Virus record (IMG/VR): IMGVR_UViG_3300030109_003613
Reading direction: 5' to 3' (one strand)
DNA length: 64,000 nucleotides
From: an uncultured virus (IMG/VR IMGVR_UViG_3300030109_003613)
Lineage: Duplodnaviria; Heunggongvirae; Uroviricota; Caudoviricetes
The notes below the pieces were generated by a model that was not told where the DNA came from, searched no databases, and saw nothing but the letters and a program-made list of their open reading frames with translations. The first letter of the stretch is position 1, and the number at the start of each line of letters is the position of its first letter. The position numbers and the translations under genes were made by a program. Positions 46,136 to 64,000 of this stretch are shown in pieces.

Positions 46136-47476
46136 TTAATAGTATGACGGCATTTTATACCCTCCTTTTCGAGCAGTTATATTTCTACCTAAATCATATC
46201 CTGAATATGTTTTTTGTTTAAGTTCTCCAGCTTTAGCTCTTGCAATATTACTAAGAACGTTTTCTGTCATCTCTTCATTAAATTCTGTAACTTTTTTATT
46301 TCTTTCTTCTTGTTGCTGTCTTTCTTGCTTTCTTGCTTTTCCTCTTTGGAATAAGCCTTTACCTAATCCATAAAGACCTCCAATTATTCCTCCTGCTATA
46401 TTACCTATACCAGGAATAACACTACCTAAAGCCATACCTGTTCCAGCACCAGATAGCATACCACCTGCTGTTTCACCTACATTCATTGTTGTAGCATCAT
46501 CATCATCTGACAATCTTGATATACCTGATCCTAAAAGACTAGCACCTAAGCCAATACCAGCACCAGATGTAGCAAAAGATTTTAATCCTGCTCCTACTGC
46601 ACTACCAGTCTGACCGGCTACAGTACCTCCTGCTTTAGTTACCTTTGCTCCTACCTTAGCAGCCTTTGCTGCTGCTTTAGCTGCTTTAGCTGTTTTACCT
46701 AACTCTGCAAATTTTTGTGATTTAGCTGCTAAATTAGCTGCTCTTACTGCTCTACCTGCAGTTATTGCTTGTTTTAATGCTCCTGCTTCTTTTATATCTG
46801 GGCCTGCTGGAGTAGGTGACGTTGGAGTTATTCCTACATTACTAGCTTCGTATAGTGGAGGTTGAGTAACAGCAAACTGAGAAGCTTGATCTGCACCTGC
46901 TCCAAAAGATTGAGTCCAATCCATGCCTCCTGCAGGAAGATCTATAACTTGACCTTGAGGAAGTAAACTTTCAGTAACAGACTCAGCTGCTTGTGTTCCG
47001 GCTGCCCCTACTGCAACATCTGTTCTACTTATATCTCCTAATTTATCTTTAAGTTTTCCAGCTTTCTTTTCTAATCTATCAGCTCGTCTAGTTTTCATTC
47101 TATCAAAAAAGCCTGTTTCTCCTGCCAGTTCTGCTGCTGTTTGAGCCATACTTTCTCCTGCCGCAAATTCAGATTGTATGTCTGCTTGACTTTGTAAAAG
47201 ATCTTGCTCTTGTTTATTTTTAAGATTCTCCATTTCAGTAGACATATCTTCACCTTTTTGTGAAGCTGTTTCTAATTGAGCTTCAAGAGCCTGTTCTCTC
47301 TGCGCTTGAATTTCTGGATTGGCTTCATCATAAACAATATTAGCTGTTTGGCCCATACCCTGTCCTGCAGCTGCTACTGTATTAGGTGCGTACATTCCAG
47401 CTGTTTCATATTTTTTTATTCTTCCTCCTAAATTATATTTACTTTTTATATACTTTTTCTTTTTTGATTTTTTCAT
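46136..47476 (-). CDS. Ala/Gly-rich cargo/ejection protein (Gly-zipper membrane segments)
   Basis: 446 aa; GAGTGMALGSVIPGIGNIAGGIIGGLYG followed by a coiled coil. Confidence 0.65.
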   Translation of the reverse strand: MKKSKKKKYIKSKYNLGGRIKKYETAGMYAPNTVAAAGQGMGQTANIVYDEANPEIQAQREQALEAQLETASQKGEDMSTEMENLKNKQEQDLLQSQADIQSEFAAGESMAQTAAELAGETGFFDRMKTRRADRLEKKAGKLKDKLGDISRTDVAVGAAGTQAAESVTESLLPQGQVIDLPAGGMDWTQSFGAGADQASQFAVTQPPLYEASNVGITPTSPTPAGPDIKEAGALKQAITAGRAVRAANLAAKSQKFAELGKTAKAAKAAAKAAKVGAKVTKAGGTVAGQTGSAVGAGLKSFATSGAGIGLGASLLGSGISRLSDDDDATTMNVGETAGGMLSGAGTGMALGSVIPGIGNIAGGIIGGLYGLGKGLFQRGKARKQERQQQEERNKKVTEFNEEMTENVLSNIARAKAGELKQKTYSGYDLGRNITARKGGYKMPSYY

Positions 47477-50400
47477 TATCTGTAAAATTTACGCGTAGCT
47501 ACAGATGTAGCATACAAATTTAATAAATTATTTGATTCGTTGTTACAAATTAACCTAATTCCTATCCATTTATCTATAAATTTCTTACGTAAATCCCATC
47601 TTTTTGCTGAATCTACGTAATTATTATTCAAAGTTTCATACATCCCTGATACTAAGAATGGTATATTTGCATTTGCAGAACTGGTTTCTAAAGTTCCTAC
47701 GTTAGTTGGAAATGTAAATATAGGCGCCTGTCCTATAATATTATTTTGTGTAAAACCCCAATGGTCCCAACCAGCCACTGAAGCTTCTGCTGCTAATGAT
47801 GTTGGAGTATATCCAGGAACTCCGCCATGAGAACCAGCCTGTCCAAAGAAATATCCTGGAGATGTATCGTTTGTTGATAATGCAGCCATATCTCTAAACC
47901 TATTAAATTTCCATTCGTTATTAATACGTCTAGTATTTATTAAATATGTTAAATCATCATAAAACATTTGTAATGTATTATACATATAAATAGTATTCCA
48001 TCCATGTTCTATAATACTTGATCCTCCAGCATCACTATCATCCCAAGCTCTTCCTGTAAATGTATCTGAATAAAAAGAAAAACTTGAAAATAATTGATCT
48101 ATTTTAGTAGAATTATGTACAAATTCAAACTCAGTTGGATAATGAATTAGATTTGCTGGACTACCATTGACATCAAATGGTGTAAAAACATCCTGATATA
48201 AAATTCCTCTATAATCTCCATTATGTTTCCAAACACCTCCATTACCAAATAATGTTTGTGGGTTATCTCCTGGTGCTACATTAGGTCCTAAAACTCCAGT
48301 TTCATATAAATCTCCGTTTATATAATTATCCCAACTATCTGTAAAAGAATAAAAATCTATAGAAGTATCAAAATAGTGATATGGAATATAATCATGAAAA
48401 CTAATCCATACCATTAAATCTGGATAAAAAGAAATAGTCCATCCTGTTTTTGTAAAGTATGTTGAATCATTCCAATCTAAAGGTTTTTCAACAAGTGCAA
48501 CTATTTGACCAGCGTCACCACTTAAAGTAACAGTTGTAGCTATAACATAAACTCCCAGTTTTTCATCAAACCAAATATCTCCTGAAACTGGCGTATTAGG
48601 TTTTTTATTTTTAAAGTCAGATATAAATTTAGAACTTGGTTTTAAGTCTCTTTTTGTTAAAATAATACGTTTATGTTTTGGATCCCACGTAGAATGTAAT
48701 CCTATACCTCTAATAGGATTATCTAATAAATATCCTTTTAAACCATAATCTTCTAAAACAAATTTTAAATTATCTCTAAACCATTTTTTCATTCCTATAG
48801 CACTAATCTCTTGTAATGCATCTGCCATTAGGAAAACTTTTCTACTTAAAGCATCAACAAAGAAATACCCATTTCTAGTAGTTAAGGCTGCCCATTGAGA
48901 TTGAGTTCCCCCATAACCTCCTTCAGACTGTAACACTTCATCAGGTTCTTGTGCAAATATATCACCACTTCCAACAAAAGCTTCACTACCATCTTTCATT
49001 TCCATTTGTTGTTTACCTTTAGCAGCATATAAACTTTCCTCCATATGGAAATATAATAGATTATTAAAGGTTGATAATTTCCAAAGCTCTCCTCTATTTT
49101 TTGGTAAGTCTTTAAATTGATTTGCTAAAAATACTCTGTAGTTATCTATTAAACTTGTAGCATCATTTTTAGCACTTCTATGTGTACGAGTACTAAATTC
49201 AGTTTGATTAGTTAATCTTAAAGGTAAAGGAAAAGCCGGTCTTAAATCATTGTTTTCAGAATAGTTTGTATTATATTTTATATTATCTACGTGTGTAAAA
49301 TCATTACCAATTGTTTCATCTACTATTGGAGTTCCTGCATTTTTAAGTATTTCAAAAGCTGAAGCTCCAGGAAAATATAAACTTTTATCTGATTCAATAT
49401 GTCTTAAACTTATATTGTCTGTACTTTCAACTATAGCGCTATGAATAGCTTTTCTAGGATTAGAAAGTTCACCTGTATTACTAGGTTTTAAAGAAGCTGC
49501 GTGTGCATATCTACAGATAAATGTATCCCCTCCAAATATTCCTCGCTCATTAAGATCCATATCAAATATTTGTCCTTGCAACGTATCTAAACTAAAATCA
49601 GCAGATTGGTTATAACCTCCATGTATAACCGTCATAGGAGCACCTAGTCCTAAACCATTACCTGGTATATCATTAAAAATAAAATTATCCATATCATTTC
49701 CTAAAACCTCAAATCCAGTCCATACTAATTCATTACTATCAATAGATTTATATACATCACTTTTAAATGCATGTAAATTAATTAGATAAAATCCCATAGG
49801 ATCTGTATCATTTGTACTATCTGGTTTACCAGACCAATTATCAGCATCATCAAAATTTGTTCCAGGAAAATTCCAAGGATTTGTTAAAACTGCGTATGCT
49901 GCTGTATGAGGAAATCCATAAGAATCTGGATTACCTCCAAGATTAAAATTAGCTCCTTGTCCAAAGTTTCCAAACTCTGCTCCTGCAGTTATTGCGTCCT
50001 CATTAACTCTGTCATCTGACCATAAAGCGCGTAATTCATGACCATCTTTTAATCCAAGAGCCATACAACTTTCGCCAAACTCATTAAATAATTTCCCACC
50101 AAAGCCTAATGATTTACCTTTAAATACACTATCACCTAATAAATAAGTTTTTGCTTTTTGTCCTAATACTCTAGGATACTCATAAAAATCTGTTTTATAT
50201 TGGTAATTAAAATACCAACCTCCCATAGTTATTACAGATCTAATTCTTTCAGGATAGCAATTACGTTCAGCATCCCATCCCCATACTTCTCTTACATCTA
50301 TTGGTTCTGGATTATCGGCATCTTCCCAATCATCTGAATTAAAATTATCTAGTTTAATATTCATTTTCTTATCTTGTTGTAATGACATTCCATTCCAAAC

Positions 50401-53400
50401 AAAAGGGAAAATTTTATATTCGGTTTTAATATGAGTAGCTCCCGCTAAACTATTTTTAGATCTTAAAAGATAAAAATCATGGAAAGAAAAGTTTTTCCAA
50501 GCGTGAAAATTAGTAGGATTATCTGAAGTTGAATTCCAAATATCTAATAAAGGATAATCAAATGTATCTCTAATATATGGATCTACATTATAAAACTGCT
50601 CTTTAGTACTAGTTAAAGTAGCTAGTATTTGTGATGCCATAGCAGTATCTGTTCCATCATCAGCTTCTTTACAAATACCTAATAAATCAAATTTATAAAG
50701 CATAGGATGAAATAATCCCTGCCCTAAAATTCTTCTATGCTCATGATCTCTTTTAGCATAATAGATTCTAAATCCTTGTACCTTATCTGCAATGCTTTTT
50801 GGTATTTTAATATCATCTAAAGTAAATCCTAATCTTTGTACATCATGACATACCTTAGCATCGTGATAGTCACCCTCTTTAAAATCTGGATCACCGGTTG
50901 ATTCATCTCCAGTAGAAATTTGAATTTCTATCCATGATCTAGTTAGATGAGTAGTTCTCCATTGGCGTCCAATACTTCCTGGAGTATTATCTAAATAATT
51001 AGGCATTAAATTTGTATGACCCGGATTATCATAATCTCCTAAATCAGAATTAGGTGGCCAATAAGCAGAATTATTTCCCTTTACAAAAAACTCATCATTC
51101 TGTAACCAAGACTGAGTTTGTTGACCACACCCATCACAATAATCACACCAAACAGGTAAAGAAGTACAACCCCCTCCCTCTTGTCTAAGTTTTTCATCAG
51201 ATTTTGTTACATCAGGATCATCTGATTTACTCTCTACCCAAATTTGATCTCCTATATTTACAGAATGCCAATTTGTCCAATTACCTTTTAAAGTGTGTGT
51301 TGTGTCAGTTCCTCCAGGAGCATTCCAACACATTTTATCATTAAATCCGTTTACTGAATTACCATTAAATCCACAAACATCATCAGCCTCAGACCCATCA
51401 GGCATTGCCATAGTTTGGGTGCCTCCTGCAGCTGTTTCAATTCTGTACCTAGTCATTACGCTTCCACAACAATTATTACCTCCACCAACACCACATTCTT
51501 TTCTTATCCATGTACATCCTCTAACTCTTATATTATATGTACCATCAGCTGTAAATTTTTCACCATCAAATAAACCTAAAGCTTCTTGTTCAGTTATATC
51601 AAGTGAACCAGCCCACCCGGCTTGACCATCTGGGTTTTTAAATAGCATTTTTGTCCAACTTTCACCATGTACTACACGTCTAGTAGAATTATTATGTCCA
51701 AATAACATTCTTCCATTTCTTTGGATCGATGCTCCTACACTACCCTCTTCCTGAGTAATTTCCCATTTTCCCATACAGTGGCCTGATATAGTTTTATACT
51801 CATCGTTTGAATTAGATGGAAAATGATGGTGTCTAACATTTAATCCTTGTATACTAGGGGTTAGTGGGTTTACCGGTGAGCCATCATCATTTGTATTAAC
51901 ATAACCGTCAAACACCCAATAATCATTTGTTTCTGGATAAAACTCTGTGGCGTTTTGCCAGTAGTTCATATTTCTAGCATTAGCATTAGTACTAGTGTCA
52001 AAAAAATGAAACTTTCTTGCATAAGCTGTACTTAAATCTGCTAAGTCTTCTAATATATAATTTGATGCATTACCTGTATTTGATATACTGGCATTATTAA
52101 CATAAGATAATTCTTCTCCTAAAGCCTCTCTTCCTGGTATGTGATAAGCATAAGACATACTTCCATCATTCATTACAAACGCTATATAAAAAGCATAAAC
52201 CTCATCTCTTGTATATCCTTTATATTTAAATATATTTGGAGCATATCTATATGATCTACTAGCATCAACATCATTTCCAGAATCTACAGGTTGATTTCCA
52301 AAACCTGTTTGAAAGTTATCAACTGTTGCATAAAATACATCAAAGTCAGGAATTGTTTTTACAACAGGACTAAGTTTAATATTATTAGCATATGGTTGGT
52401 ATCCTAAATCTGTAGTCTTTGTTAAATTTCCTAAATATAATACACCATCTAATTGATTTATAGTTTTAACTGTATCGTATGAAATAGTATCTATAATAAC
52501 CTCTTCTACAGATGCTGAAGCAAATCCTTCTATACCACTAAAAACAACCCCATTATCTCCTGCTACTTTTAAATCAATATCACTAAGTTTAAAAGCGTCT
52601 GTTGCTTCTCCCATCTTTCGAATAACAACAGGTCTTAGAAATTTATAATCTGTATTAATATTTGTAATTTTCCATTTAATTGCTTTAGATGTTTGACTTC
52701 CTTCTTTGGCTCCATCTTTTCTTGTTGTAGGTCTAGTATGATCGTATTCATCAACAATAGATACAGGATTAGAAACTGTAAGATAATTTGTAGAAACAAA
52801 GTCTTCATCTATATATGCTAAAGCTAAATAATACACTCCAGTTCTTAAACCTCCTCCTTCTACAACAGATCTTTGATGACTCATCATAGGAATAATAGAA
52901 TACACATCATCAAGATCTATATGTGGAACTGGTCCCGAATTAGGAAATAAGTTTAATAAATCTATATGATCTATATGTGTAGTATTAGTAGATGTATTTA
53001 CAAAAGTTGAATACGCACCTATATTACCAGCTAATGCTGGAGGTAAATTATAAAGACTAAAAAAATTACCACCAGTATCAAAACTAGCTAATTGCCTTGT
53101 TACATTAAAAGTTCTAGGAGAATTAAAATCATCTGTCCAATAAATAATAACATTTTCTCTACTATCAATTTTAAAAGTACCTTCAATCGGATGATCAATA
53201 CTAAAATTTAAATTATTAGATCCTTTAAATTTATTTTCAATAATTGGTAATACTGGTTGAGGCCTATATAGAATTGTATATTTAAGTCCAATATCTTTTG
53301 AAGGATCAAAAAGACCTATTTCAGAAGTATATAAAGTAGTATCAGTATCAGCTCTTCTATCTCTAAAAAAGAAAATAATTTTATCATCGTTAATAGGAAT

Positions 53401-53628
53401 AGATCCTATACATTTATAATTTTCAGTTGAAGTTACAAATCCTCCTAGATAATCAACTTTTCCAGGAGCTTGTATATTTTGAACTGGAGTATTACCACCT
53501 TCATTACTAATTGAACCGTCTTTTTCAGACATAATGATATTCCTCGCATATCTCCAACTTCCTTCAGGTTGATCGATATGAGCGGTATCTTTAAATAAAC
53601 CTTTTACAAATCTTTTTTCGTTTGCCAT
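47476..53628 (-). CDS. Tail stabilization / muzzle protein
   Basis: 2050 aa; KGLFKD...WRYARN...SISNEGGN, IYWTDDFNSPR, GYTRDEVYAF, VRHHHFP, FGGDTFI, WTISF...WISFHDYIP. Confidence 0.8.
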   Translation of the reverse strand: MANEKRFVKGLFKDTAHIDQPEGSWRYARNIIMSEKDGSISNEGGNTPVQNIQAPGKVDYLGGFVTSTENYKCIGSIPINDDKIIFFFRDRRADTDTTLYTSEIGLFDPSKDIGLKYTILYRPQPVLPIIENKFKGSNNLNFSIDHPIEGTFKIDSRENVIIYWTDDFNSPRTFNVTRQLASFDTGGNFFSLYNLPPALAGNIGAYSTFVNTSTNTTHIDHIDLLNLFPNSGPVPHIDLDDVYSIIPMMSHQRSVVEGGGLRTGVYYLALAYIDEDFVSTNYLTVSNPVSIVDEYDHTRPTTRKDGAKEGSQTSKAIKWKITNINTDYKFLRPVVIRKMGEATDAFKLSDIDLKVAGDNGVVFSGIEGFASASVEEVIIDTISYDTVKTINQLDGVLYLGNLTKTTDLGYQPYANNIKLSPVVKTIPDFDVFYATVDNFQTGFGNQPVDSGNDVDASRSYRYAPNIFKYKGYTRDEVYAFYIAFVMNDGSMSYAYHIPGREALGEELSYVNNASISNTGNASNYILEDLADLSTAYARKFHFFDTSTNANARNMNYWQNATEFYPETNDYWVFDGYVNTNDDGSPVNPLTPSIQGLNVRHHHFPSNSNDEYKTISGHCMGKWEITQEEGSVGASIQRNGRMLFGHNNSTRRVVHGESWTKMLFKNPDGQAGWAGSLDITEQEALGLFDGEKFTADGTYNIRVRGCTWIRKECGVGGGNNCCGSVMTRYRIETAAGGTQTMAMPDGSEADDVCGFNGNSVNGFNDKMCWNAPGGTDTTHTLKGNWTNWHSVNIGDQIWVESKSDDPDVTKSDEKLRQEGGGCTSLPVWCDYCDGCGQQTQSWLQNDEFFVKGNNSAYWPPNSDLGDYDNPGHTNLMPNYLDNTPGSIGRQWRTTHLTRSWIEIQISTGDESTGDPDFKEGDYHDAKVCHDVQRLGFTLDDIKIPKSIADKVQGFRIYYAKRDHEHRRILGQGLFHPMLYKFDLLGICKEADDGTDTAMASQILATLTSTKEQFYNVDPYIRDTFDYPLLDIWNSTSDNPTNFHAWKNFSFHDFYLLRSKNSLAGATHIKTEYKIFPFVWNGMSLQQDKKMNIKLDNFNSDDWEDADNPEPIDVREVWGWDAERNCYPERIRSVITMGGWYFNYQYKTDFYEYPRVLGQKAKTYLLGDSVFKGKSLGFGGKLFNEFGESCMALGLKDGHELRALWSDDRVNEDAITAGAEFGNFGQGANFNLGGNPDSYGFPHTAAYAVLTNPWNFPGTNFDDADNWSGKPDSTNDTDPMGFYLINLHAFKSDVYKSIDSNELVWTGFEVLGNDMDNFIFNDIPGNGLGLGAPMTVIHGGYNQSADFSLDTLQGQIFDMDLNERGIFGGDTFICRYAHAASLKPSNTGELSNPRKAIHSAIVESTDNISLRHIESDKSLYFPGASAFEILKNAGTPIVDETIGNDFTHVDNIKYNTNYSENNDLRPAFPLPLRLTNQTEFSTRTHRSAKNDATSLIDNYRVFLANQFKDLPKNRGELWKLSTFNNLLYFHMEESLYAAKGKQQMEMKDGSEAFVGSGDIFAQEPDEVLQSEGGYGGTQSQWAALTTRNGYFFVDALSRKVFLMADALQEISAIGMKKWFRDNLKFVLEDYGLKGYLLDNPIRGIGLHSTWDPKHKRIILTKRDLKPSSKFISDFKNKKPNTPVSGDIWFDEKLGVYVIATTVTLSGDAGQIVALVEKPLDWNDSTYFTKTGWTISFYPDLMVWISFHDYIPYHYFDTSIDFYSFTDSWDNYINGDLYETGVLGPNVAPGDNPQTLFGNGGVWKHNGDYRGILYQDVFTPFDVNGSPANLIHYPTEFEFVHNSTKIDQLFSSFSFYSDTFTGRAWDDSDAGGSSIIEHGWNTIYMYNTLQMFYDDLTYLINTRRINNEWKFNRFRDMAALSTNDTSPGYFFGQAGSHGGVPGYTPTSLAAEASVAGWDHWGFTQNNIIGQAPIFTFPTNVGTLETSSANANIPFLVSGMYETLNNNYVDSAKRWDLRKKFIDKWIGIRLICNNESNNLLNLYATSVATRKFYR

Positions 53629-54581
53629 TATTCTCTATATAAGTCTTCTCTCATGTTTAGTTGTTCAAACATTAAATCATGTCTCGATAAATTTGGGATT
53701 AGTCTAACCCACTGATTCATAAACGATTCATATCTATCAATGTCTGGATAATTTGCAGCATTTCTTGCTTGCGTACAATAATATTTCCATTGCTGCTCCG
53801 CAAACCCATAATCAATTCCGTTACGTTTTGTCTCTGGAGGACTTACAAATGATAATAAAAGTTTTTTGTATATATACCAAAATAATGCTTCTTTGAAGCT
53901 TATATCGTCTGGTACTAATGGAAAACAGTCTTCGTCAATAGGAAAAGCTTTATAACTTAAACATAATTTCCCACTTACAAAAGATGTTTTAATATACCCA
54001 TCATCTATAATATATGTATCCTCATACACAGTATTTTCATTTACACATCCTTCACAATGCATACTTCTATGAAATGTAGATGCACCATATTGTAATGGTT
54101 GCATAGTATTAGTGTTATTAAAAAACACACCTTCTAAAACTACAATTCTACTGTTAATTTTATTTAATTCTAAAATATTAGATTTATATTGTGTATCATA
54201 AGTTGTTAAATCTGCATTTGTTATACTAGACGCTTGACCTACAACTTCTTCTTCTAAAGTTTTATTATATTCTTTAATTTCTGTTTTTAACTCTCTTACT
54301 TGTGTGAGTAATGTATCAAGTTCATTTGATGATACTGGAGATACACTATTATTAATAGCTACTTGATTTATATAGTATAAATCTGAAGGCATTAATACTT
54401 TATGATCTTTTACATCTAATACGCATTGTTTATCAACTAGCTGAGACGCAGATCCTATATGCTCTAAAGCTTCACCAATCCATTCTACAGCATCATCAAT
54501 CCATGTATCATGTTGAGGTTTTAAATCTCTAAATATTTTTCTAATTACTGCCTTACTTGATATTGTTTTATATATACTCAT
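53628..54581 (-). CDS. Tail ring/tubular protein
   Basis: DAVEWIGEAL...YIKTSFVSGKLCLSYKAFPIDEDCFPLVPD..SFKEALFWYI...WKYYCTQA; start moved to MSIYKT (54581). Confidence 0.75.
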   Translation of the reverse strand: MSIYKTISSKAVIRKIFRDLKPQHDTWIDDAVEWIGEALEHIGSASQLVDKQCVLDVKDHKVLMPSDLYYINQVAINNSVSPVSSNELDTLLTQVRELKTEIKEYNKTLEEEVVGQASSITNADLTTYDTQYKSNILELNKINSRIVVLEGVFFNNTNTMQPLQYGASTFHRSMHCEGCVNENTVYEDTYIIDDGYIKTSFVSGKLCLSYKAFPIDEDCFPLVPDDISFKEALFWYIYKKLLLSFVSPPETKRNGIDYGFAEQQWKYYCTQARNAANYPDIDRYESFMNQWVRLIPNLSRHDLMFEQLNMREDLYRE

Positions 54582-54583
54582 TA

Positions 54584-55060
54584 TTAAAATATGTTTTCTA
54601 TTGGTGGTTCTAAAAATCCTCCATCTTGATAAAATCCGCCACATTCCCTACATCCCCATTTACGTAAAGCTTTATTTATTCTAGAGTTTGGATCATTTCT
54701 TTTCTTGCTACCCGTTAGTTTATTTTTCATGCCCGTCATTCTTTTACAAAAAGAATTTTTTCTTTTCTTTCTTTTTCCTGATGGTTTATCTTCAGTTACA
54801 GGAGCTTTTATATTCTGCCCTTGAGCCCTAAGAGATGCACGACCTTTTTCGTTTAATCCACCGCTAGGGCTTTTGCCTTCCTTTCTAGTCCAAGCTCCTC
54901 CAGTTTTTTTGGCTGTTTTTGCAGACTCCTCTAAAGCTTTATCAGTTACTGTGCCTTTACCAGGTTTAGATGTACCACGCTTTTTAGCACGATTCATGTA
55001 ATAATACAAACCTTTTTTAGCTCGTCTTCCGTCTTTTGTTATATGATATTTACTTGCCAT
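54584..55060 (-). CDS. DUF6321-like basic protein
   Basis: AWTRKEGKSPSGGLN..GRAS...KAPV...SFCKRM...DPNSRINKALRKW. Confidence 0.7.
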   Translation of the reverse strand: MASKYHITKDGRRAKKGLYYYMNRAKKRGTSKPGKGTVTDKALEESAKTAKKTGGAWTRKEGKSPSGGLNEKGRASLRAQGQNIKAPVTEDKPSGKRKKRKNSFCKRMTGMKNKLTGSKKRNDPNSRINKALRKWGCRECGGFYQDGGFLEPPIENIF

Positions 55061-56495: not shown

Positions 56496-57209
56496 TTATG
56501 ATTTAGATTGTGCTCTCGCAATTGTTTGTGGATCTTGCATTCTATCATTCATAGTATCACTAATTGTACCTGACAATAGTTGCAATTCACCTCCTAAAAT
56601 GCCTTGATTAATACGTTGTATCATATCCATAGGAATTGGAAAATCGTGATCATCATCACTGTAACAAGAGTTACAATCATCAGTTCCATTTCCACAACAA
56701 TCAAATTTAGCAACGTCTTGAGGATTTTCAAAAACACCTCTAACGTTAATATACTGTAATCCTTCAGCATTATATATATATACATAGTCATCTAAAAGAT
56801 AAGCTTTCATTTTTTTATTAGTATACTTATCATAAGGTAACCATTTTACTGTTTGAGGACTTACTATAGGAATAGTTCCTAATCCTGTAATATCTCCTAC
56901 ATGACTAATTGCATCTTGAAAATTATATCTAACTGTTTTTGGTATTTTAGATACAGTTCTATAAACTGCACAATCTACAGGAAGATCACAACATTTACTA
57001 GCATCTACTTTAGTTATAGGTAAACATCCTAAATCTTGTTCAATGTGTCTACTAGTAAAACCATTTTTTTGATAGTCTCTTCTAATAAACACAGCTCTAT
57101 AGTGTTTAATATTAAATTTTATTTGATCTAAAGAAATATGTTCATCATGATTAGAACGTCCTCCTCTGACTAAATTTAATAAGTTATATGCAATTTCATT
57201 TAATGTCAT
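56496..57209 (-). CDS. Conserved crAss-like structural (neck/ring) protein
   Basis: MTLNEIAYNLL...ISLDQIKF...QDLGCL...IPK...INVRGVFENP...FPIP. Confidence 0.65.
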   Translation of the reverse strand: MTLNEIAYNLLNLVRGGRSNHDEHISLDQIKFNIKHYRAVFIRRDYQKNGFTSRHIEQDLGCLPITKVDASKCCDLPVDCAVYRTVSKIPKTVRYNFQDAISHVGDITGLGTIPIVSPQTVKWLPYDKYTNKKMKAYLLDDYVYIYNAEGLQYINVRGVFENPQDVAKFDCCGNGTDDCNSCYSDDDHDFPIPMDMIQRINQGILGGELQLLSGTISDTMNDRMQDPQTIARAQSKS

Positions 57210-57212
57210 GTT

Positions 57213-57605
57213 TTATTTTTTTACTTTTTCAAACGATCTTCCTCCGAAGTAGGCTCCAATTACAGTTATCAGCGTAAGCTGTAAGAGGTCAGTCCATTTT
57301 TCTTCAACCGTAAAACTTAATGCTCCTGCGTCTATAAAAATTAAAAGCATAGTACATACTATTAAAAATATAAGTACTAAAGGTCTTACGTTTTTTGATA
57401 ACCAAGAATCTGATTTTAAATCTGCTTCCCAACGAGATGTAATGTTTTTTTCCATTTCAACCTCATAGTTGGCAATTAATTCTTTCATTTTTTGTTTAGC
57501 TTCAAGCTTTTCTGCTTTAGAAGTATGCAAATTGTCTATTACCCCTCCTACACTTTCTACTAATTTTCCTGCTCCTCCGCTAAATATTTTACTTAATATA
57601 CTCAT
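57213..57605 (-). CDS. Holin (3TM/GTA-type holin family)
   Basis: RWEADLKSDSWLSKNVRP, two TM segments, YFGGRSFEK. Confidence 0.8.
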   Translation of the reverse strand: MSILSKIFSGGAGKLVESVGGVIDNLHTSKAEKLEAKQKMKELIANYEVEMEKNITSRWEADLKSDSWLSKNVRPLVLIFLIVCTMLLIFIDAGALSFTVEEKWTDLLQLTLITVIGAYFGGRSFEKVKK

Positions 57606-58530: not shown

Positions 58531-58989
58531 TTATATAACCATATATTTGGTTTTACCATTCTTTTTATATGCTTTTAAACATCTATTTCTATTTTCTTTA
58601 AGTGACACATAACTAATATGTACCCAATTAGGATTATCCTCATCTCCAAACTCCCAAATCATTTGATCAAATTCTAAATTATCTTTTATCCAGTGATACA
58701 TTTCAGCATTTGTTTTATAACCAAATGTATCGTCAATATCTATTGCTTGTCCAAGACAATGCTGAGATTTAGAACTTCCACCTATAGCAGTATTGAGTTT
58801 AGGCGATCTAAAAAAGCTATTTACTTTTATAGGTTTACCAACCCATTCTCTAACAGGTTCAAAAACTTTTTCAGCTAATAATTTCATATTAGCTAATTGC
58901 TTTTCGTTGGGTATATTATCTATACCTCTCCTAATAGCAGTATTACTATGTACTGCTTCTTTGTAACTTATGTGGTTACTTATTTTCAT
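58531..58989 (-). CDS. Peptidase M15 family endolysin
   Basis: SFFRSPKLNTAIGGSSKSQHCLGQAIDI...WVHIS (SxHxxxxAxD and H zinc ligands). Confidence 0.9.
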   Translation of the reverse strand: MKISNHISYKEAVHSNTAIRRGIDNIPNEKQLANMKLLAEKVFEPVREWVGKPIKVNSFFRSPKLNTAIGGSSKSQHCLGQAIDIDDTFGYKTNAEMYHWIKDNLEFDQMIWEFGDEDNPNWVHISYVSLKENRNRCLKAYKKNGKTKYMVI

Positions 58990-58996: not shown

Positions 58997-59359
58997 CTAT
59001 GCTTTAGTCCAATACGCGTATTCAAGAATACATGCAGCATTGTTAGCCTGTACTTTTAATCCTTCATTGTCTATTACAGCAAAGAAGGCAAATTCACCCG
59101 GCCATAAAATACCAAAACCATCGTCAGTATCATTAAAATACTTTATATGATTTGTACCATCTGTATTTTTTAAATATACATATGTTGTTGTTGCGTTGTC
59201 AGTTAAAAGTGCTGTAGCAGATGCATCTCCAACTAGAGATATTCTAGCTACATTTACCGCTGGTTCTTTTACTGATAACACATCTGACACACTAAGATTC
59301 AAAGAATCACTAGTAGCATTAGAACTTGTTAATGTTAATTTTGCTGTTAATGTTGCCAT
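58997..59359 (-). CDS. Hypothetical protein (possible virion component)
   Basis: 120 aa; YVYLKNTD...LWPGEFAFF...LEYAYW. Confidence 0.6.
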   Translation of the reverse strand: MATLTAKLTLTSSNATSDSLNLSVSDVLSVKEPAVNVARISLVGDASATALLTDNATTTYVYLKNTDGTNHIKYFNDTDDGFGILWPGEFAFFAVIDNEGLKVQANNAACILEYAYWTKA

Positions 59360-59364: not shown

Positions 59365-61866
59365 TTAATTTTTTATTATTTTATTATTAATTTGTTTTTC
59401 TTTGTATATAATTTGTAAATTATATATTCCTTTAGGATAAGAACTTAAATCTATTCTTTTTACATTTTTTAAATCTAATAATTTCTTTCCTGTCATATTA
59501 TAAACTATTACATCTACAATTGAATGTGCTGTAATATTTATTACATCTTTTGTAGGATTAGGATAAATTAATAGTTCATTTTCTCTTAATTCTTCTATAT
59601 TAACAGGCCCAGTCCACCCATCAATACAATATTGATATAATCCATCACAAGAAGAATCCCAATCTATATCACAACAATAACTATCTATATCTATCACCCA
59701 AGCAAAACATTCATTTGGTAAATAATAAACATCTCCTACTGCGCATCCTGCTGTATAATAACAAGAACTATCTGACACATTAGCTAGTATGTTATAATTT
59801 ATAGCTGATATATCAGTACATCCTTCAATTATTTCTATACAACTGTTATCATCATAACATGCATTAGAATTATAATTTAATGCTGTACTATCTGTGCATC
59901 CTGATATATAACAACAAGTATTATTTAATGTATTAGCTAAAGGATCAAAATTAAGAGCTGCCGCATCTGTGCATCCATACACAAAAGGTTCGCAAGTTCC
60001 ATTGTCTGTATTAGCTGTAGCATTATAATTATACATTGTTGAATCAGTACATCCATAAATATACGGAATACAACTTCCATTATTTGTATTAGCATTTGCA
60101 TCGTAATTCCACATTGAAGCATCTGTACATCCAAATACAACAGGAATACAAGAATTATCATCTGTATTTGCTAATACATTATAATTAAAGGCTACAGGGT
60201 CAGTGCAGCCCCAGACTACTGGCGTGCACGTGCCATCATCTGTATTCGCTAAAGGGTTAAAGTTAAATGCTGTAGGGTCTATACATCCTTCTATAATAGG
60301 TATACAATTACCATCATCTACATTTGCATTTACATTATAATTAAACATTGTACTATCAGTACATCCCTCTATAACATCTATACAAGATCCAGCTATTTCT
60401 ATATTAGCCGCTGGATTATAATTTAAAGCTGTTGAATCCATACATCCATAAACAGCAAGTGTTAAACAAGATCCATCATCATAGTCATATAAAGCATCAT
60501 ATTCTAAATACAATGGATTCATACATCCTGGATTATAATAACAACTTCCATCGTTTGTATTTTTTGTAGGATCATAATTTACTGCTAAAGAATCTATACA
60601 TCCATATGTTCTAGGAATACATTCATTACCACAATCTGTTACAGCTGTAATCCACATAAATGGAGGTATTTGTTGTTGAAATTGAAAACCTCCTGGATAA
60701 TATAAAGTTGTATCTCCTGAAGCACTAACTAAACTAAATCCACATTGATTAGCAGTTCCATCAGATTGAGTTGTAGTTACAAATTGAACTCTAACAGCTT
60801 CTGGAGCTCCTAAATTAAATACAAAACTTGTATCAGACATACCCATTGGTAAAAAGAATATACCTATAAGATCGTATCCTTGTTCTACAACTAGTGTTGA
60901 TCCTGCCCATCCATTACCTCCTAAATCAGTAAGATTTAATGTATAATCACAATCATTTATATACACATCAGTATTAGCTGAATCTACATAATTAAATGCA
61001 GTACTATCTGTACACCCCCAAACAACAGGAGTTAAACAACTACCGTCATCTATTACAGCTAATGGATTATATTCTAAATAATTCCAATCCATACATCCAA
61101 TAACTGGAGGTGGTGGAGCACAAGTATCAGATTGAAAAAAATGTGTTGTATCGTTTTCAAATGCTGGATCTGTTCCAAATATTAATGTATCAGTACATTG
61201 TACTACATAATATGAACCATCATTTCCTCCCCAAAGAGACCCTTGTAACCCATCTCCATATGCATCATTAATAGTAAATTCTAACGGAATAACTGGTAAA
61301 CATAAATCTACAGACTGCGGTTGATACGCAGGTGCAGCATACGGACCTCCTTGAAATAATACATTTCCTAAAGTATCTGCTATTTCCCAAGTAGTTTCAC
61401 CTGGATATTGATCAACATTTATAATAATTGTTGCATTTTCACATAAAGGTGGAGGTGGAGGTGGTGCATTTGGATTACACGGCCCTATATTAAATGTTTG
61501 TGTATAAACACCAAAAGCAAAATCTGCTGGTATATTTAATATTTGTCCTTCACAATGGTTTAAAAGATTTATATACCCAACTATACCACTGTCTACCCAT
61601 CCATCACCCCACGCATCAAACATAACAAGGTTATAAGAACCTGCATCTAAAAGAATCGTATCAATTAATAGTTCATTTACTTGAGTTGGTTGAAAATAAT
61701 ATAATGTATCTGAATTAGAATCTGATATATAAAAATATGATTCTTGTGGACCATATGAATCAAACTGAGCTTCAACAGCTAAATATGAAGACTGCCCAAA
61801 TAAAGTAGCAGTTGTAAAAACTACTATTATTAATACCGCATACAAAAATTTTGTAAAGTTGTTCAT
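59365..61866 (-). CDS. Secreted Cys/Asp-repeat protein with type A T9SS C-terminal sorting domain
   Basis: Signal peptide ending TLFG-Q; D.WGDGW/D.YGDG/GGNGW.G beta domains; 13 GC.D..A.NY...AN.DDGSC repeats; C-terminal IYPNPTKD.INI...YNMTG...GIY.LQI...KIIKN. Confidence 0.9.
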   Translation of the reverse strand: MNNFTKFLYAVLIIVVFTTATLFGQSSYLAVEAQFDSYGPQESYFYISDSNSDTLYYFQPTQVNELLIDTILLDAGSYNLVMFDAWGDGWVDSGIVGYINLLNHCEGQILNIPADFAFGVYTQTFNIGPCNPNAPPPPPPLCENATIIINVDQYPGETTWEIADTLGNVLFQGGPYAAPAYQPQSVDLCLPVIPLEFTINDAYGDGLQGSLWGGNDGSYYVVQCTDTLIFGTDPAFENDTTHFFQSDTCAPPPPVIGCMDWNYLEYNPLAVIDDGSCLTPVVWGCTDSTAFNYVDSANTDVYINDCDYTLNLTDLGGNGWAGSTLVVEQGYDLIGIFFLPMGMSDTSFVFNLGAPEAVRVQFVTTTQSDGTANQCGFSLVSASGDTTLYYPGGFQFQQQIPPFMWITAVTDCGNECIPRTYGCIDSLAVNYDPTKNTNDGSCYYNPGCMNPLYLEYDALYDYDDGSCLTLAVYGCMDSTALNYNPAANIEIAGSCIDVIEGCTDSTMFNYNVNANVDDGNCIPIIEGCIDPTAFNFNPLANTDDGTCTPVVWGCTDPVAFNYNVLANTDDNSCIPVVFGCTDASMWNYDANANTNNGSCIPYIYGCTDSTMYNYNATANTDNGTCEPFVYGCTDAAALNFDPLANTLNNTCCYISGCTDSTALNYNSNACYDDNSCIEIIEGCTDISAINYNILANVSDSSCYYTAGCAVGDVYYLPNECFAWVIDIDSYCCDIDWDSSCDGLYQYCIDGWTGPVNIEELRENELLIYPNPTKDVINITAHSIVDVIVYNMTGKKLLDLKNVKRIDLSSYPKGIYNLQIIYKEKQINNKIIKN
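59749..60603 (-). repeat. 11 tandem ~26-aa Cys-bracketed repeats within the T9SS cargo gene
   Basis: For example GCTDSTMFNYNVNANVDDGNCIPIIE and GCIDPTAFNFNPLANTDDGTCTPVVW; 855 nt over 11 units; two more copies upstream. Confidence 0.9.
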
Positions 61867-61870: not shown

Positions 61871-62065
61871 TTATTTATTTTCTATTTTATTTAATATTTT
61901 TGTTAAACTGTCTTGTTTTAAACTATCAGTCATATTTTGTTCTATTAAGTACTCATACTCAATTAAAGCTTTATCGTATCTATCTTGCAAATGATTTAAC
62001 TTCATACCATTATACGCCCAAATAAAAAACATACCACAAATAATAAAATATATAATATTTAACAT
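61871..62065 (-). CDS. Small membrane-anchored coiled-coil protein
   Basis: N-terminal TM followed by a heptad-like region. Confidence 0.55.
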   Translation of the reverse strand: MLNIIYFIICGMFFIWAYNGMKLNHLQDRYDKALIEYEYLIEQNMTDSLKQDSLTKILNKIENK

Positions 62066-62433
62066 TAAAATTTACTCATTATAATTTCATTAATAACTTC
62101 TTGTACTTCTTTTCTTGTAGCAGCAAGTTTAAAACTTAAATCTGCTTGAAACCTATCAATTTCTTCTCCATCATCAAATATTACAATTGTTGGTACAATT
62201 GCTATTTTATACTTAGCTTGTATATTATCTACACTTATATCTAAATTAGATGTCTTACAATCTTTAAGTTCAGGTAAATAATTAATTCCATTTTGTGTAT
62301 TCCAATCAGCATTAAATTGAACTACCTGTATACCATCACTACTAACTTGAGCACTACAAGCACTTGAAAATAGTAATATTAATCCTATTATTAATATGTA
62401 TATACTAAATATCCTACTAAGTTCTTTTTTCAT
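62065..62433 (-). CDS. Exported thioredoxin-fold protein lacking CxxC
   Basis: Signal peptide ...SSACSA-Q; VVQFNADWN in place of F.A.WC..C; KYKIAIVPTIVIFDDGEEIDRF. Confidence 0.75.
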   Translation of the reverse strand: MKKELSRIFSIYILIIGLILLFSSACSAQVSSDGIQVVQFNADWNTQNGINYLPELKDCKTSNLDISVDNIQAKYKIAIVPTIVIFDDGEEIDRFQADLSFKLAATRKEVQEVINEIIMSKF

Positions 62434-62652: not shown

Positions 62653-62937
62653 TTATTTTAATTTATCAATTTTATCCTCAATACGTCTCATATCTTCTTT
62701 TATTTCTTTTACATCATCTTGAGTATTTAGAATAGTAGATCTAATATTTTCATCTTTCATTTGAAACTCCATTCTAGTTACTTCTGGTGGAGGCGCTACA
62801 GGTAATTCTTTAGCTTCTTCTATATCAGCTTGTAGCATAAACCACATACTGATTATAGTTACCATAGCAAAACCAATAGCTACAAGAGTTTTTACACTTA
62901 ATTTAAAGGACGTATCTTCGTTTAATTCTTTTGCCAT
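62653..62937 (-). CDS. Membrane-anchored coiled-coil protein
   Basis: One TM followed by a coiled-coil C-terminus. Confidence 0.6.
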   Translation of the reverse strand: MAKELNEDTSFKLSVKTLVAIGFAMVTIISMWFMLQADIEEAKELPVAPPPEVTRMEFQMKDENIRSTILNTQDDVKEIKEDMRRIEDKIDKLK

Positions 62938-62938
62938 A

Positions 62939-63148
62939 TTAATTCCAAAATGTTATTTTACCTATTATACCTAAAATTGCAATCCATATAGACCACAATA
63001 CTTTTGTTGTTGACTTTCTAAAATCTGTATTTTTATTAACTCTTGCTATAGTTCCATCATCTGGGTCTAGTAGCTTCTTTTTAATAAACCTTACATCTTC
63101 TTTAAGGTCTTTTAGTTCATCGTGTATTTGCTTATTTGTTATAGGCAT
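62939..63148 (-). CDS. Coiled-coil protein with C-terminal TM
   Basis: 69 aa; ...VLWSIWIAILGIIGKITFWN. Confidence 0.6.
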   Translation of the reverse strand: MPITNKQIHDELKDLKEDVRFIKKKLLDPDDGTIARVNKNTDFRKSTTKVLWSIWIAILGIIGKITFWN

Positions 63149-63321
63149 TACACTTCAAACCCTAAATTTAATATCATAAATCTAAATCTTTTTGCTGTGC
63201 AATTTTCATCACAAAACAAGCAAGCTTTAAATTCTAAAACTGTAAATGTTCCTAATCTAAGATTAAGTTCAAACTTTTGCTTTTTATTTCCGGCTTTAAA
63301 ACCGTTTATCCAATTTACCAT
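63148..63321 (-). CDS. Small hypothetical protein (57 aa)
   Basis: MVNWINGFKAGNKKQKFELNLRLGTFTVLEFKACLFCDENCTAKRFRFMILNLGFEV; TAATG-coupled to the next gene; not in track. Confidence 0.65.
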   Translation of the reverse strand: MVNWINGFKAGNKKQKFELNLRLGTFTVLEFKACLFCDENCTAKRFRFMILNLGFEV

Positions 63322-63332
63322 AATTATAATTT

Positions 63333-63701
63333 TTAACGTTTTCCGCCATGATATTCTACAGCATGGCCTTCTTTAATTAATTGTTTATTAACATTGATTT
63401 GTGTAATCTGATCGGTTCCGTCAAGTTTATCGACATATAACTCTCCTAATACACGACCATATTTACCCAATTCTTTAGACTCTAGAGTAAAGCTAGGATT
63501 TTCAGCGAAAATAGCTTTCACCCTATCTTTGGCTGCTAACCCTCTAGCTTTCTCTTCTAAATCTCTAGTTCTGCTTTCTGGTGCATTTATACCAGCAAAC
63601 CTAACTCTTTTTTTAATAGACACATCAAATCCTAAATCTATATTGACATCTATTGTATCTCCGTCAACTACTTTTTCTAATTTAGCTTTATATGTATACA
63701 T
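63333..63701 (-). CDS. Thermonuclease (SNase) family nuclease
   Basis: VVDGDTI, RFAGINAPE, GKYGRVLG, LIKEGHA. Confidence 0.88.
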   Translation of the reverse strand: MYTYKAKLEKVVDGDTIDVNIDLGFDVSIKKRVRFAGINAPESRTRDLEEKARGLAAKDRVKAIFAENPSFTLESKELGKYGRVLGELYVDKLDGTDQITQINVNKQLIKEGHAVEYHGGKR

Positions 63702-63702: not shown

Positions 63703-63999
63703 TTAAAATATTTTATAATTTATTCCAAATTTAAAATCATACCATTTTCGATTCCAGTATTTGTTATACTTTCCTTCTACAAAACATCCTACATTTCTAT
63801 TTAAATTATATCCAAAAATTACACCCCCTGAATAATCAGACCATTGTTTTCCATCATTAAAATTATGATAAGAAAATTCTCCTCCATTATTATAGTGCAG
63901 AGGCATTACATTGCCCCATGAGTGTAACCAAAAATCTTTTTTATAATGATAAAAATCAAATCCTAAAACTAATGAGTGAACCCATTGATTAGGCAATTC
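63703..63999 (-). CDS. C-terminal part of a probable outer-membrane beta-barrel protein (truncated by window edge)
   Basis: Aromatic-rich alternating strands (LGFDFYHY, GVIFGYNL, GCFVEGKY) ending FGINYKIF with a terminal Phe; frame open to the window end. Confidence 0.6.
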   Translation of the reverse strand, partial: ELPNQWVHSLVLGFDFYHYKKDFWLHSWGNVMPLHYNNGGEFSYHNFNDGKQWSDYSGGVIFGYNLNRNVGCFVEGKYNKYWNRKWYDFKFGINYKIF

Positions 64000-64000
64000 A

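What the first reader, a model, noticed from the sequence alone, without database searches (positions are those of the whole stretch)
59365..61866. Lytic phage encodes a full type IX secretion system cargo protein
Seen: Sec signal with Gln at +1, beta-sandwich-like domains, 13 Cys-bracketed Asp/Asn-rich repeats and a canonical type A T9SS CTD, embedded in the late operon near the endolysin and holin. Established: CTD-bearing proteins are exported by the Bacteroidota T9SS to the surface or medium. Inference: the phage uses the host T9SS to display or release a large adhesin-like protein, for example for superinfection exclusion, receptor masking, aggregation with new hosts, grazer avoidance or jamming T9SS/gliding. 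To my knowledge this is not a characterised phage function.
Basis: partly seen in the sequence, partly recalled or inferred. Interest (0 to 1): 0.78.

Follow-up and report, generated by a model that had tools for sequence, protein, structure and literature searches.

The report
Phage-encoded type IX secretion cargo
A marine crAss-like phage carries an intact, conserved gene for a cysteine-rich, very acidic protein bearing both export labels of its Bacteroidota host, so the infected cell probably puts it on or outside its surface; such genes have been noted before but never tested.

Summary
ORF 59365-61866 (-) encodes 833 aa with these parts:
- a signal peptide followed by Gln;
- three beta-sandwich domains;
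- exactly 13 Cys-bracketed repeats;
- a small Cys module;
- a type A T9SS sorting domain above the curated cut-offs, whose model superposes on solved CTDs bound to the translocon.

The window is a crAss-like phage (muzzle and tail-ring proteins, holin, M15 endolysin). The gene is not a chimera. Public contigs bridge both of its ends, and intact relatives sit in the same synteny in 14 of 14, and in 62 of 64, viral loci.

New points:
- The gene is an add-on to a phage-only envelope trio (inner-membrane helix protein, CxxC-less thioredoxin, outer-membrane barrel). In another lineage that trio stands alone beside the holin.
- Its repeats, last sandwich domain and CTD recur in giant surface proteins of marine Flavobacteriales.
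- 12 of 54 complete relatives carry a conserved ~38-residue short tail in place of the CTD. Tail type switched at least 4-5 times.

Phage T9SS cargo was reported in 2019 and 2020, and this scan has found this family in other genomes. Export is inferred and the function is unknown. Verdict: a new member of a known, untested kind.

The parts
59365..61866 (-). Cargo gene, 833 aa (P0001): signal peptide, three beta-sandwiches, 13 Cys repeats, Cys module, type A CTD
61795..61866 (-). Sec signal peptide (residues 1-24), with Gln25 as the predicted new N-terminus (Bacteroidetes Q-rule)
   Evidence: sequence; helix 3-23 in the model; Gln follows the hydrophobic stretch in 15 of 15 family members by inspection
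61486..61791 (-). Beta-sandwich D1 (residues 26-127); almost absent from the cellular relatives
   Evidence: covered in only 3 of 89 matching cellular ORFs
61132..61443 (-). Beta-sandwich D2 (residues 142-245), with D-x-Y-P-x-E-T-x-W and D-x-[FY]-G-D-G motifs
   Evidence: only a weak C2/PLAT-like fold match (1olp, Z 6.5)
60949..61098 (-). Cys-bracketed repeats 1-2 (residues 257-306)
60640..60954 (-). Beta-sandwich D3 (residues 305-409), shared with cellular relatives
   Evidence: weak CBM-like fold match (2xhh, Z 6.5)
59761..60603 (-). Cys-bracketed repeats 3-13 (residues 422-702), period about 26 aa, Asp/Asn-rich
   Evidence: all bracketing Cys invariant in alignment A1
59578..59745 (-). Small Cys-rich helical module (residues 708-763) before the CTD, conserved in both tail classes
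59368..59568 (-). T9SS type A C-terminal sorting domain (residues 767-833), a basic seven-strand sandwich
61871..62065 (-). 64-aa hydrophobic small ORF between the thioredoxin-like gene and the cargo gene; no relative found in the 14 loci
62065..62433 (-). Exported thioredoxin-fold protein without CxxC (F-N-A-x-W-N in its place); lies upstream of the cargo gene in relatives
62653..62937 (-). 94-aa protein with one N-terminal membrane helix and a charged helical tail (first gene of the trio)
63703..64000 (-). Last 98 codons of the ~345-aa phage outer-membrane beta-barrel protein (cut by the window end)
58531..58989 (-). Endolysin (Peptidase M15), context
57213..57605 (-). Holin (phrog_3427), context

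Best explanation
The gene encodes a phage protein made for export by the host's own machinery.

How it would work:
1. Its signal peptide takes it through Sec into the periplasm. Signal peptidase I then leaves an N-terminal Gln (inferred). There its 43 Cys can pair.
2. Its type A CTD hands it to the T9SS of the flavobacterial host.
3. The T9SS moves it across the outer membrane and either anchors it on the surface or releases it (inferred from what is established for type A cargo).

The mature part is extremely acidic. It is built as three N-terminal beta-sandwich (binding-type) domains on a stalk of 13 disulfide-bracketed, Asp/Asn-rich repeats.

The stalk repeats, the third sandwich, the Cys module and the CTD are the same parts that marine Flavobacteriales use in their own giant T9SS surface proteins. 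The phage protein is therefore a compact look-alike of host surface fibres.

It is co-transcribed with a phage-only envelope trio and the lysis genes, into which it was inserted as an add-on (co-transcription is inferred from gene packing).

Most likely role (guess): it re-dresses the surface of the infected cell late in infection. It could occupy or mask T9SS-displayed receptors so that further phages, and its own progeny, do not adsorb to doomed cells and debris. Alternatively it could act as an adhesin.
For: Export signals:
- Both are present.
- The CTD fold matches CTDs solved in complex with the translocon.
- PF18962 is found in 29 of 29 CTD-class tails of relatives.
- 94 Asp+Glu against 4 Lys+Arg in residues 25-762, with a basic CTD.

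The phage is real and its host phylum fits:
- crAss muzzle, ring-1 and ring-2 proteins.
- The DNA polymerase is nearest to crAss-like phages.

The gene is selected and not chimeric:
- It is intact in 14 of 14 loci at 41-53% identity.
- It is present within 1.7 kb downstream of the thioredoxin gene in 62 of 64 loci.
- Contigs from three public runs (one study; one run may be the window's source sample) bridge both gene ends without a difference, or with one.
- The protein cluster was seen on 8 contigs, the longest 86,560 bp.

Host-like parts:
- 489 of 627 candidate stretches in prokaryote genomes encode relatives.
- 56 of the 68 kept loci are labelled Flavobacteriales.
- ORFs there carry up to 84 repeats and a CTD.

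Add-on status: a distant clade has the trio alone in 66 of 80 loci and no CTD or repeat ORF in 80 of 80.

Variability typical of host-interaction genes: against the closest relative L014 the flanks are 75-91% identical in DNA, while the cargo gene matches only in its repeats, at about 66%.

Published context: T9SS and gliding mutations give phage resistance in Flavobacterium (titles and abstract starts only).
Against: - No experiment and no expression data exist; no RNA run holds the stretch.
- The host is unknown, so no T9SS has been shown for it.
- 12 of 54 complete relatives lack a recognisable CTD (0 of 16 short tails hit PF18962 at E <= 1). The family's function therefore does not strictly need the canonical signal.
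- CTDs can be species-specific (PMC11285876, abstract), so recognition by the host is not guaranteed.
- The same repeats occur in phage proteins without a signal peptide in relatives, and in proteins annotated as virion structural proteins in cyanophage S-CAM3. The repeats alone do not argue for secretion.
- The sandwich domains have only weak fold matches, so no ligand can be named.
Confidence: 0.6

Rival explanations
1. It is a virion part (fibre or decoration protein). The C-terminal sandwich would then be just an Ig-like domain of the kind common on phage particles.
For: - It lies in the late block next to tail-ring, muzzle and lysis genes.
- Relatives encode 1200-1590-aa proteins with 2-7 copies of the same repeats, no signal peptide and no CTD.
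- The repeats match ORFs annotated 'virion structural protein' in cyanophage S-CAM3.
- The model matches a 'Crassvirus muzzle protein C-terminal domain' protein of Virus NIOZ-UU157 in BFVD (E 1.5e-17, 18% identity).
Against: - A cleavable-looking signal peptide with Gln after it is kept in 15 of 15 family members.
- The tail matches T9SS CTD models by sequence above curated cut-offs, not only by fold.
- Its gene neighbours are exported envelope proteins.
- Virions assemble in the cytoplasm.
Confidence: 0.1
2. It is a working part of the lysis device. Together with the inner-membrane helix protein, the inactive thioredoxin and the outer-membrane barrel, it would help break or loosen the outer membrane, for example by clogging the T9SS translocon.
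For: - It is inserted inside or right beside the trio operon in 62 of 64 loci.
- The trio is followed by the phrog_3427 holin in 2 of 3 cargo-less loci examined.
- In the window the holin and endolysin lie within 2.2 kb.
Against: - The trio exists without any CTD or repeat ORF in 80 of 80 loci of another clade, so the trio does not need it.
- The cargo is far more variable than the trio and the lysis genes, which suits a host-interaction role better than a mechanical one.
Confidence: 0.12
3. It is a recently captured host gene carried as a passenger, with no role for the phage.
For: Its repeats, D3 domain, Cys module and CTD are shared with cellular Flavobacteriales proteins.
Against: - It is intact in all relatives despite divergence to 41-53% identity.
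- The collinear architecture with D1 is nearly confined to viral sequences.
- Its position in the operon is fixed.
- No other window ORF matches the 68 cellular loci.
Confidence: 0.05

Closest known systems
T9SS type A cargo genes of 'Cryophage' (Bellas et al. 2020, Nat Commun, PMC7468147; passages read)
   Same: These are phage-borne genes with type A sorting domains. They are highly variable between phage variants, are proposed to hijack the host T9SS, and are untested.
   Different: Those are an endoglucanase, a GH39 and a PA14 protein of a glacier phage. Here the protein is a non-enzymatic Cys-repeat stalk protein of a marine crAss-like phage, inserted in an envelope-protein operon next to the lysis genes.
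T9SS sorting-domain ORFs and a crAss-BACON ORF with a sorting domain in gut crAss-like contigs (de Jonge et al. 2019, Viruses, PMC6949934; passages read)
   Same: crAss-like phages of Bacteroidota; repeat-domain proteins with a T9SS sorting domain near structural genes.
   Different: BACON repeats in gut phages; no relation to the Cys repeats or the trio seen here.
Type A CTD cargo of Flavobacterium johnsoniae (NucA, FspA, RemA) with CTDs solved on the SprA-PorV translocon (PDB 8GLK, 8GLJ, 8GL6; entry titles)
   Same: A seven-strand CTD sandwich: 33% identity, Z 9.5 and rmsd 1.9 A to the NucA CTD. A Sec signal peptide at the other end.
   Different: Those are cellular genes with secretion shown by experiment. 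The passenger domains are unrelated.
Giant Cys-repeat T9SS proteins of uncultured marine Flavobacteriales (loci L015-L082, unnamed family)
   Same: The same G-C-x-D...C repeat, the D3 sandwich, the Cys module and a type A CTD.
   Different: They are cellular, run to 3660 aa or more with up to 84 repeats, lack D1, and have no trio genes nearby.
Phage proteins that alter the host surface, such as T5 Llp, lambda Lom/Bor and P22 SieA (recalled, not looked up here)
   Same: They are a working analogy: phage-encoded envelope proteins exported by host pathways that change adsorption or surface properties.
   Different: They are lipoproteins or small membrane proteins of enterobacterial phages. None uses the T9SS and there is no sequence relation.

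Membership tests
T9SS type A CTD cargo (TIGR04183 / PF18962) | The domain at the extreme C-terminus scores above the curated cut-off of the family models | tested here: met
   TIGR04183 40.6 bits (cut-off 23), residues 767-833; PF18962 40.1 bits (cut-off 27)
T9SS type A CTD cargo (TIGR04183 / PF18962) | N-terminal Sec signal peptide for the first membrane crossing | tested here: met
   By inspection only (no SignalP): Lys6, hydrophobic 7-23, Gln25. The same layout is seen in 15 of 15 family members; helix 3-23 in the model
T9SS type A CTD cargo (TIGR04183 / PF18962) | Seven-strand Ig-like sandwich like the solved CTDs | tested here: met
   Seven strands at 766-832; 8glk_D Z 9.5, rmsd 1.9 A, 70 aligned; also 8glj_D, 8gl6_D, mirolase, RgpB, PorZ and HBP35; Foldseek TM 0.77
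T9SS type A CTD cargo (TIGR04183 / PF18962) | The producing cell has a T9SS | not testable with these tools
   The host is unknown. Indirect evidence: crAss-like phage, and cellular relatives in 65 of 68 loci labelled Bacteroidota
T9SS type A CTD cargo (TIGR04183 / PF18962) | T9SS-dependent secretion and removal of the CTD | not testable with these tools
   Needs an experiment
T9SS type B CTD cargo with PorP/SprF partner (TIGR04131) | Type B C-terminal domain | tested here: not met
   No type B model among the NCBIfam hits at E <= 1
T9SS type B CTD cargo with PorP/SprF partner (TIGR04131) | The neighbouring outer-membrane barrel belongs to PorP/SprF | tested here: inconclusive
   The phage barrel has no Pfam or NCBIfam hit at E <= 0.1 in 5 full-length relatives. 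Fold search gives generic 12-14-strand barrels; PorV (6h3i_F) scores only Z 8.0 at rank 28
Crassvirales-like phage (genomic setting) | crAss muzzle and tail-ring proteins | tested here: met
   PF25731 E 7.7e-45; PF24228 E 1.8e-56; PF25702 E 4.8e-42
Two-component spanin (considered for the neighbouring trio only) | Inner-membrane protein with a periplasmic coiled coil, plus an outer-membrane lipoprotein | tested here: not met
   The 94-aa protein has the first topology by inspection. The outer-membrane partner is a ~345-aa beta-barrel, not a small lipoprotein. No PHROG spanin hit

The most novel reading that the evidence does not exclude
The family carries two interchangeable C-terminal address tags. 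One is the canonical T9SS CTD. The other is a conserved ~38-residue short tail containing an L-G-R-P motif.

What supports this:
- The short tail aligns as a CTD that has lost its first strand and its middle.
- Tail type switched at least 4-5 times on the tree of the N-terminal body, so both tags are kept by selection.
- The short tail tends to sit directly upstream of the phage's own outer-membrane barrel gene, often overlapping it: 15 of 18 rows against 12 of 42 for the CTD.

The bold reading is that the phage barrel is a private exporter or anchor for short-tailed cargo, analogous to PorP/SprF with type B CTDs or to two-partner secretion. Such phages would then display a host-like fibre without needing the host T9SS. 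The whole cassette (membrane helix protein, dead thioredoxin as a holder for the 43-Cys protein, barrel, cargo) would be one phage-built surface-display system.
Probability: 0.12. Interest if true: 0.8.

Novelty: new member of a known kind. Interest (0 to 1): 0.45.

Why it matters
If the protein is exported as its signals say, an abundant group of ocean phages makes its flavobacterial host display or shed a phage-designed copy of the host's own surface fibres.

This would be a route of surface remodelling specific to Bacteroidota. T9SS-displayed proteins drive gliding, polymer degradation and (in Flavobacterium) phage adsorption, so it could affect superinfection, particle attachment and carbon turnover.

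The family is large and conserved, and it offers a natural experiment (canonical CTD against short tail) for asking what a T9SS signal minimally needs. No member has been tested.

Tried and rejected
- **DNA match to known phages.** Megablast of 40-64 kb against 50,697 phage records gave none.
- **Own assembly.** It is not held. The nearest record, G001, is a 26-kb fragment with no match, which shows nothing.
- **PHROGs.** No family for the cargo.
- **Promoters and terminators.** Sigma-70-type promoter and terminator scans were not above shuffles. A Bacteroidetes-type promoter pattern (recalled consensus) gave 5 matches against 4.05 expected, none near the gene.
- **Expression.** No RNA holder is listed for the stretch.
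- **Phage-versus-cell tree.** It was abandoned because 0 cellular ORFs align over 230 aa or more of residues 140-420.
- **Ligand of the sandwich domains.** Only weak or low-TM matches were found: ferlin C2 arrays E 1e-6 with TM <= 0.12; a CBM and a PLAT/C2 domain at Z 6.5.
- **Barrel as PorV or PorP/SprF.** No family hit and only generic barrel folds. No match in 50,697 phage records.
- **Distant barrel relatives.** P0371 and P0294 gave no viral loci.
- **Short tail linked to a barrel gene directly downstream.** The raw table is suggestive. Only 4 independent pairs exist (sign test median p 0.25), so this is not shown.
- **Earlier notes of this scan by place.** None.
- **PMC10013915.** It held 'Por secretion system' only in its reference list.
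Full report
**1. What is there**

The ORF is exactly as reported: 59365..61866 on the minus strand, ATG start, 833 codons. Its parts, from the N-terminus:

- **Signal peptide.** Lys6, a hydrophobic stretch 7-23 and then Gln25; the model shows a helix at 3-23. No signal-peptide predictor was available, so the cleavage site is read by eye. Exposing Gln after the signal peptide is the Bacteroidetes 'Q-rule' (PMC5837995 and PMC10653852, seen as search listing and abstract starts).
- **Three beta-sandwich domains** at 26-127, 142-245 and 305-409 (model mean pLDDT 76, pTM 0.36).
- **Exactly 13 repeats** of the form G-C-x-[DN]...C. Two lie between the second and third sandwich and eleven lie in a row at 422-702. 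The protein has 43 Cys.
- **A small helical Cys module** at 708-763.
- **A type A T9SS sorting domain** at 767-833.
  - TIGR04183 scores 40.6 bits against a cut-off of 23. PF18962 scores 40.1 bits against 27. No type B model appears at E <= 1.
  - A profile of the family hits CTDs solved on the Flavobacterium translocon: 8glk_D E 7e-6, 8glj_D E 1.5e-5.
  - The modelled domain superposes on 8glk_D with Z 9.5, rmsd 1.9 A over 70 residues and 33% identity. FspA, RemA, RemZ, mirolase, RgpB, PorZ and HBP35 CTDs follow in the list. Foldseek gives TM 0.77.

Residues 25-762 hold 94 Asp+Glu against 4 Lys+Arg, while the CTD is basic. This is the only CTD-bearing ORF of the window.

**2. The setting is a crAss-like phage and the contig is sound**

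- Pfam finds the Crassvirus muzzle protein (47476-53628, E 7.7e-45), tail ring protein 1 (53628-54644, E 1.8e-56) and ring protein 2 (56496-57209, E 4.8e-42).
- It also finds a Peptidase M15 endolysin and, at exactly its cut-off, a 3-TM holin.
- PHROGs add terminase, DNA polymerase, helicases, primase and rIIA/rIIB-like genes.
- The polymerase's best named relatives are crAss-like phages at about 30% identity.
- None of the 43 ORFs scanned with PHROGs matched an integrase or repressor. The window is only part of a genome of at least 86.5 kb, so 'lytic' is likely but not shown.

Against a chimera:
- The protein cluster was seen on 8 contigs.
- Contigs assembled independently from three public marine runs tile the region with 0 or 1 differences. 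They bridge both ends of the gene: X1 records 4 and 5, X2 records 13 and 14. They break only inside the repeats at 60209-60414. The three runs belong to one study and one of them may be the source sample.
- The same gene order recurs in many unrelated samples (next section).

**3. Relatives and synteny**

A scan of IMG/VR found 14 loci. All 14 hold an intact full-length relative (636-1130 aa, 41-53% identity) with a signal peptide followed by Gln. Neighbours in those loci:
- The CxxC-less thioredoxin-fold gene (window 62065-62433) lies upstream of the cargo gene in 13 of 14; the fourteenth locus is cut there.
- The 94-aa membrane-helix gene (62653-62937) is present in 12 of 14.
- The ~345-aa gene whose last 98 codons end the window (63703-64000) is present in 14 of 14.

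That last protein has these properties:
- It has a signal peptide and ends in an aromatic-rich strand.
- It has no Pfam, NCBIfam or named-phage match.
- It has 3545 relatives at about 70% identity, all on contigs of 86 kb or less among the 120 listed.
- It folds as a 12-14-strand outer-membrane barrel: pLDDT 75.6; CymA Z 11.6, OmpG 10.8, TamA 10.7. PorV scores only Z 8.0 at rank 28.

Starting from this barrel, 577 of 601 candidate viral stretches encode it. In the best 80 loci, 62 of the 64 that hold the thioredoxin gene have the cargo gene within 1.7 kb downstream. Of the other two, one locus ends 0.6 kb after the thioredoxin gene, and one has the cargo gene 1.76 kb away.

**4. The cargo is an add-on to a self-standing trio**

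I tested this.
- A profile search of 1.84 billion representatives gave 388 barrel relatives.
- One distant relative (P0281, E 6.5e-35) is encoded in 130 viral stretches.
- In the 80 loci kept, the order helix protein, thioredoxin, barrel is contiguous in 66. Thirteen others are cut at that side, and one lacks a helix-protein hit.
- None of the 80 holds an ORF matching my CTD or repeat profiles.
- In 2 of the 3 such loci that I annotated, the phrog_3427 holin follows the barrel within about 0.3 kb, and a tail-fibre gene precedes the trio.

So the trio is an independent, lysis-linked module of unknown function. It is spanin-like in topology but has a barrel in place of a lipoprotein. In the window's lineage the cargo gene was inserted into it or beside it.

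**5. Relation to cellular proteins**

The 120 best are mostly 1100-1450 aa and carry PF18962. They share every module of the query.
- Many of these are probably viral. The ESM Atlas neighbours of residues 25-420 are viral clusters, one of them with PF18962 in 95% of members (a lead only). IMG/VR holds barrel-plus-cargo contigs of up to 245 kb.
- Certain cellular relatives come from the prokaryote genome scan. There, 489 of 627 stretches encode relatives and 68 loci were kept. Of these, 56 are labelled Flavobacteriales (including Cryomorphaceae and Crocinitomicaceae), 9 other Bacteroidota, and 3 other phyla (two Comamonadaceae MAGs and one Saccharibacteria MAG, possibly binning errors). Contigs reach 3.48 Mb.
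- Their ORFs carry the same repeats (up to 84 in one 3660-aa ORF), the D3 domain, the Cys module and often the CTD. D1 is covered in only 3 of 89 matching ORFs.
- No other window gene matches those loci.

The phage protein is thus a compact mosaic that shares its stalk and address tag with host surface giants, not a recent copy of one host gene.

**6. Two tail classes**

- Of 54 complete cargo genes in the barrel-based sample, 42 end in a CTD and 12 end in a conserved short tail of about 38 residues with an L-G-R-P motif.
- Pfam finds PF18962 in 29 of 29 distinct CTD-class tails and in 0 of 16 short tails at E <= 1. Of the 11 distinct relatives from the first scan, 3 had the CTD, two of them above the cut-off.
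- Profile comparison aligns the short tail with the CTD minus its first (Y-P-N-P) strand and its middle. The score is carried largely by the shared Cys module.
- On a tree of the D2-D3 region (64 rows, quick search), tail type needs at least 5 changes, 4 of them forced by well-supported branches. The tails have therefore been exchanged between bodies and both are maintained.
- Short tails more often have the barrel gene directly downstream: 15 of 18 against 12 of 42. With only 4 independent pairs this is not significant.
- A complex prediction of tail with barrel could not be run.

**7. Variability**

Against the closest relative with this region (L014), the flanking genes are 75-91% identical in DNA. 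The cargo gene matches only in its repeats, at about 66%. At protein level the cargo is 41-44% identical, where neighbours reach 92-97%. In the three metagenomes the conserved neighbours (endolysin, holin, nuclease) pile up depth from many co-occurring phages, while most of the cargo gene does not.

**8. Mechanism and rivals**

- **Best reading (0.6).** Sec export, disulfide formation in the periplasm, then T9SS export to the surface or medium, late in infection. The product is a host-like acidic fibre with three binding-type heads. The role is a guess. Receptor masking or superinfection exclusion is attractive because T9SS and gliding mutations give phage resistance in Flavobacterium (titles and abstract starts of 10.1101/2020.10.02.323337 and PMC9804748).
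- **Virion part (0.10).** This is favoured by repeat-bearing proteins without signal peptides in relatives and by 'virion structural' annotations in cyanophage S-CAM3. It is opposed by the conserved signal peptide and the sequence-level CTD.
- **Component of the lysis device (0.12).** This is opposed by the cargo-less trio.
- **Passenger gene (0.05).** This is opposed by conservation.

**9. Novelty**

- Phage-encoded T9SS cargo is in print (PMC7468147 and PMC6949934, passages read).
- Signal peptides obeying the Q-rule in phage proteins are in print for Porphyromonas phages (PMC10367356, passages read).
- Databases already label a viral relative as a sorting-domain protein.
- This scan has reported this family and its trio in at least ten other phage genomes. 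I treat those notes as leads only.
- Five literature searches found no experimental test. The library covers open PMC and bioRxiv only.

This window adds a clean, full-CTD member. From my own tests it also adds the add-on relation to the trio, the mosaic relation to host giants, and the repeated swapping of two tail types.

Noticed in passing
window 62065-62433, 62653-62937, 63703-64000 (-): A phage-only envelope trio: a 94-aa membrane-helix protein, an exported thioredoxin fold without CxxC, and a ~345-aa outer-membrane barrel. In a distant clade it stands alone (66 of 80 loci, no cargo in 80 of 80). There the holin follows it in 2 of 3 loci examined. It may be an undescribed outer-membrane lysis device; this is untested.
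   Followed up: partly
loci L127, L132, L134-L137, L141, L145, L149, L150, L152, L156, L161; L002-L005, L007-L009, L011-L014: Relatives of the cargo end in a conserved ~38-residue short tail with an L-G-R-P motif in place of the CTD. Pfam does not recognise it (0 of 16). Tail type changed at least 5 times on the tree of the N-terminal body.
   Followed up: partly
loci L087, L090, L091, L095, L099, L112, L113, L121, L122, L125, L152 (ORFs of 1201-1588 aa): Related phages also encode large proteins with 2-7 copies of the same Cys repeat, but no signal peptide and no CTD. These lie upstream of the barrel and are probably virion fibres. The window has no such ORF.
   Followed up: partly
window 29245-41565 and 24095-29245 (-): ORFs of 4106 and 1716 aa. 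The 1716-aa ORF has no Pfam or PHROG match; the 4106-aa ORF has no Pfam match and was not scanned against PHROGs. By position in a crAss-like genome they may be ejected virion proteins; this was not examined.
   Followed up: no
window 62937-63332: Contigs in three metagenome runs join 62937 to 63332, skipping 394 bases (the 69-aa and 57-aa ORFs), at higher depth than the window's own form. Co-occurring relatives therefore lack these two small genes.
   Followed up: no
window 58997-59359 (-): A 120-aa protein directly after the cargo gene, with no family match. Relatives carry one to three paralogues of it near the cargo or barrel. It is 92% identical in L014, although the neighbouring cargo is only 41-44% identical.
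   Followed up: no
window 17085-19889 and 20757-21923 (+): rIIA-like (with an HATPase_c_3 domain) and rIIB-like genes in a crAss-like marine phage.
   Followed up: no
window 63333-63701 (-): A small nuclease (phrog_452, no signal peptide seen) sits between the barrel gene and the small membrane-protein genes. In relatives it moves around within the same cassette.
   Followed up: no
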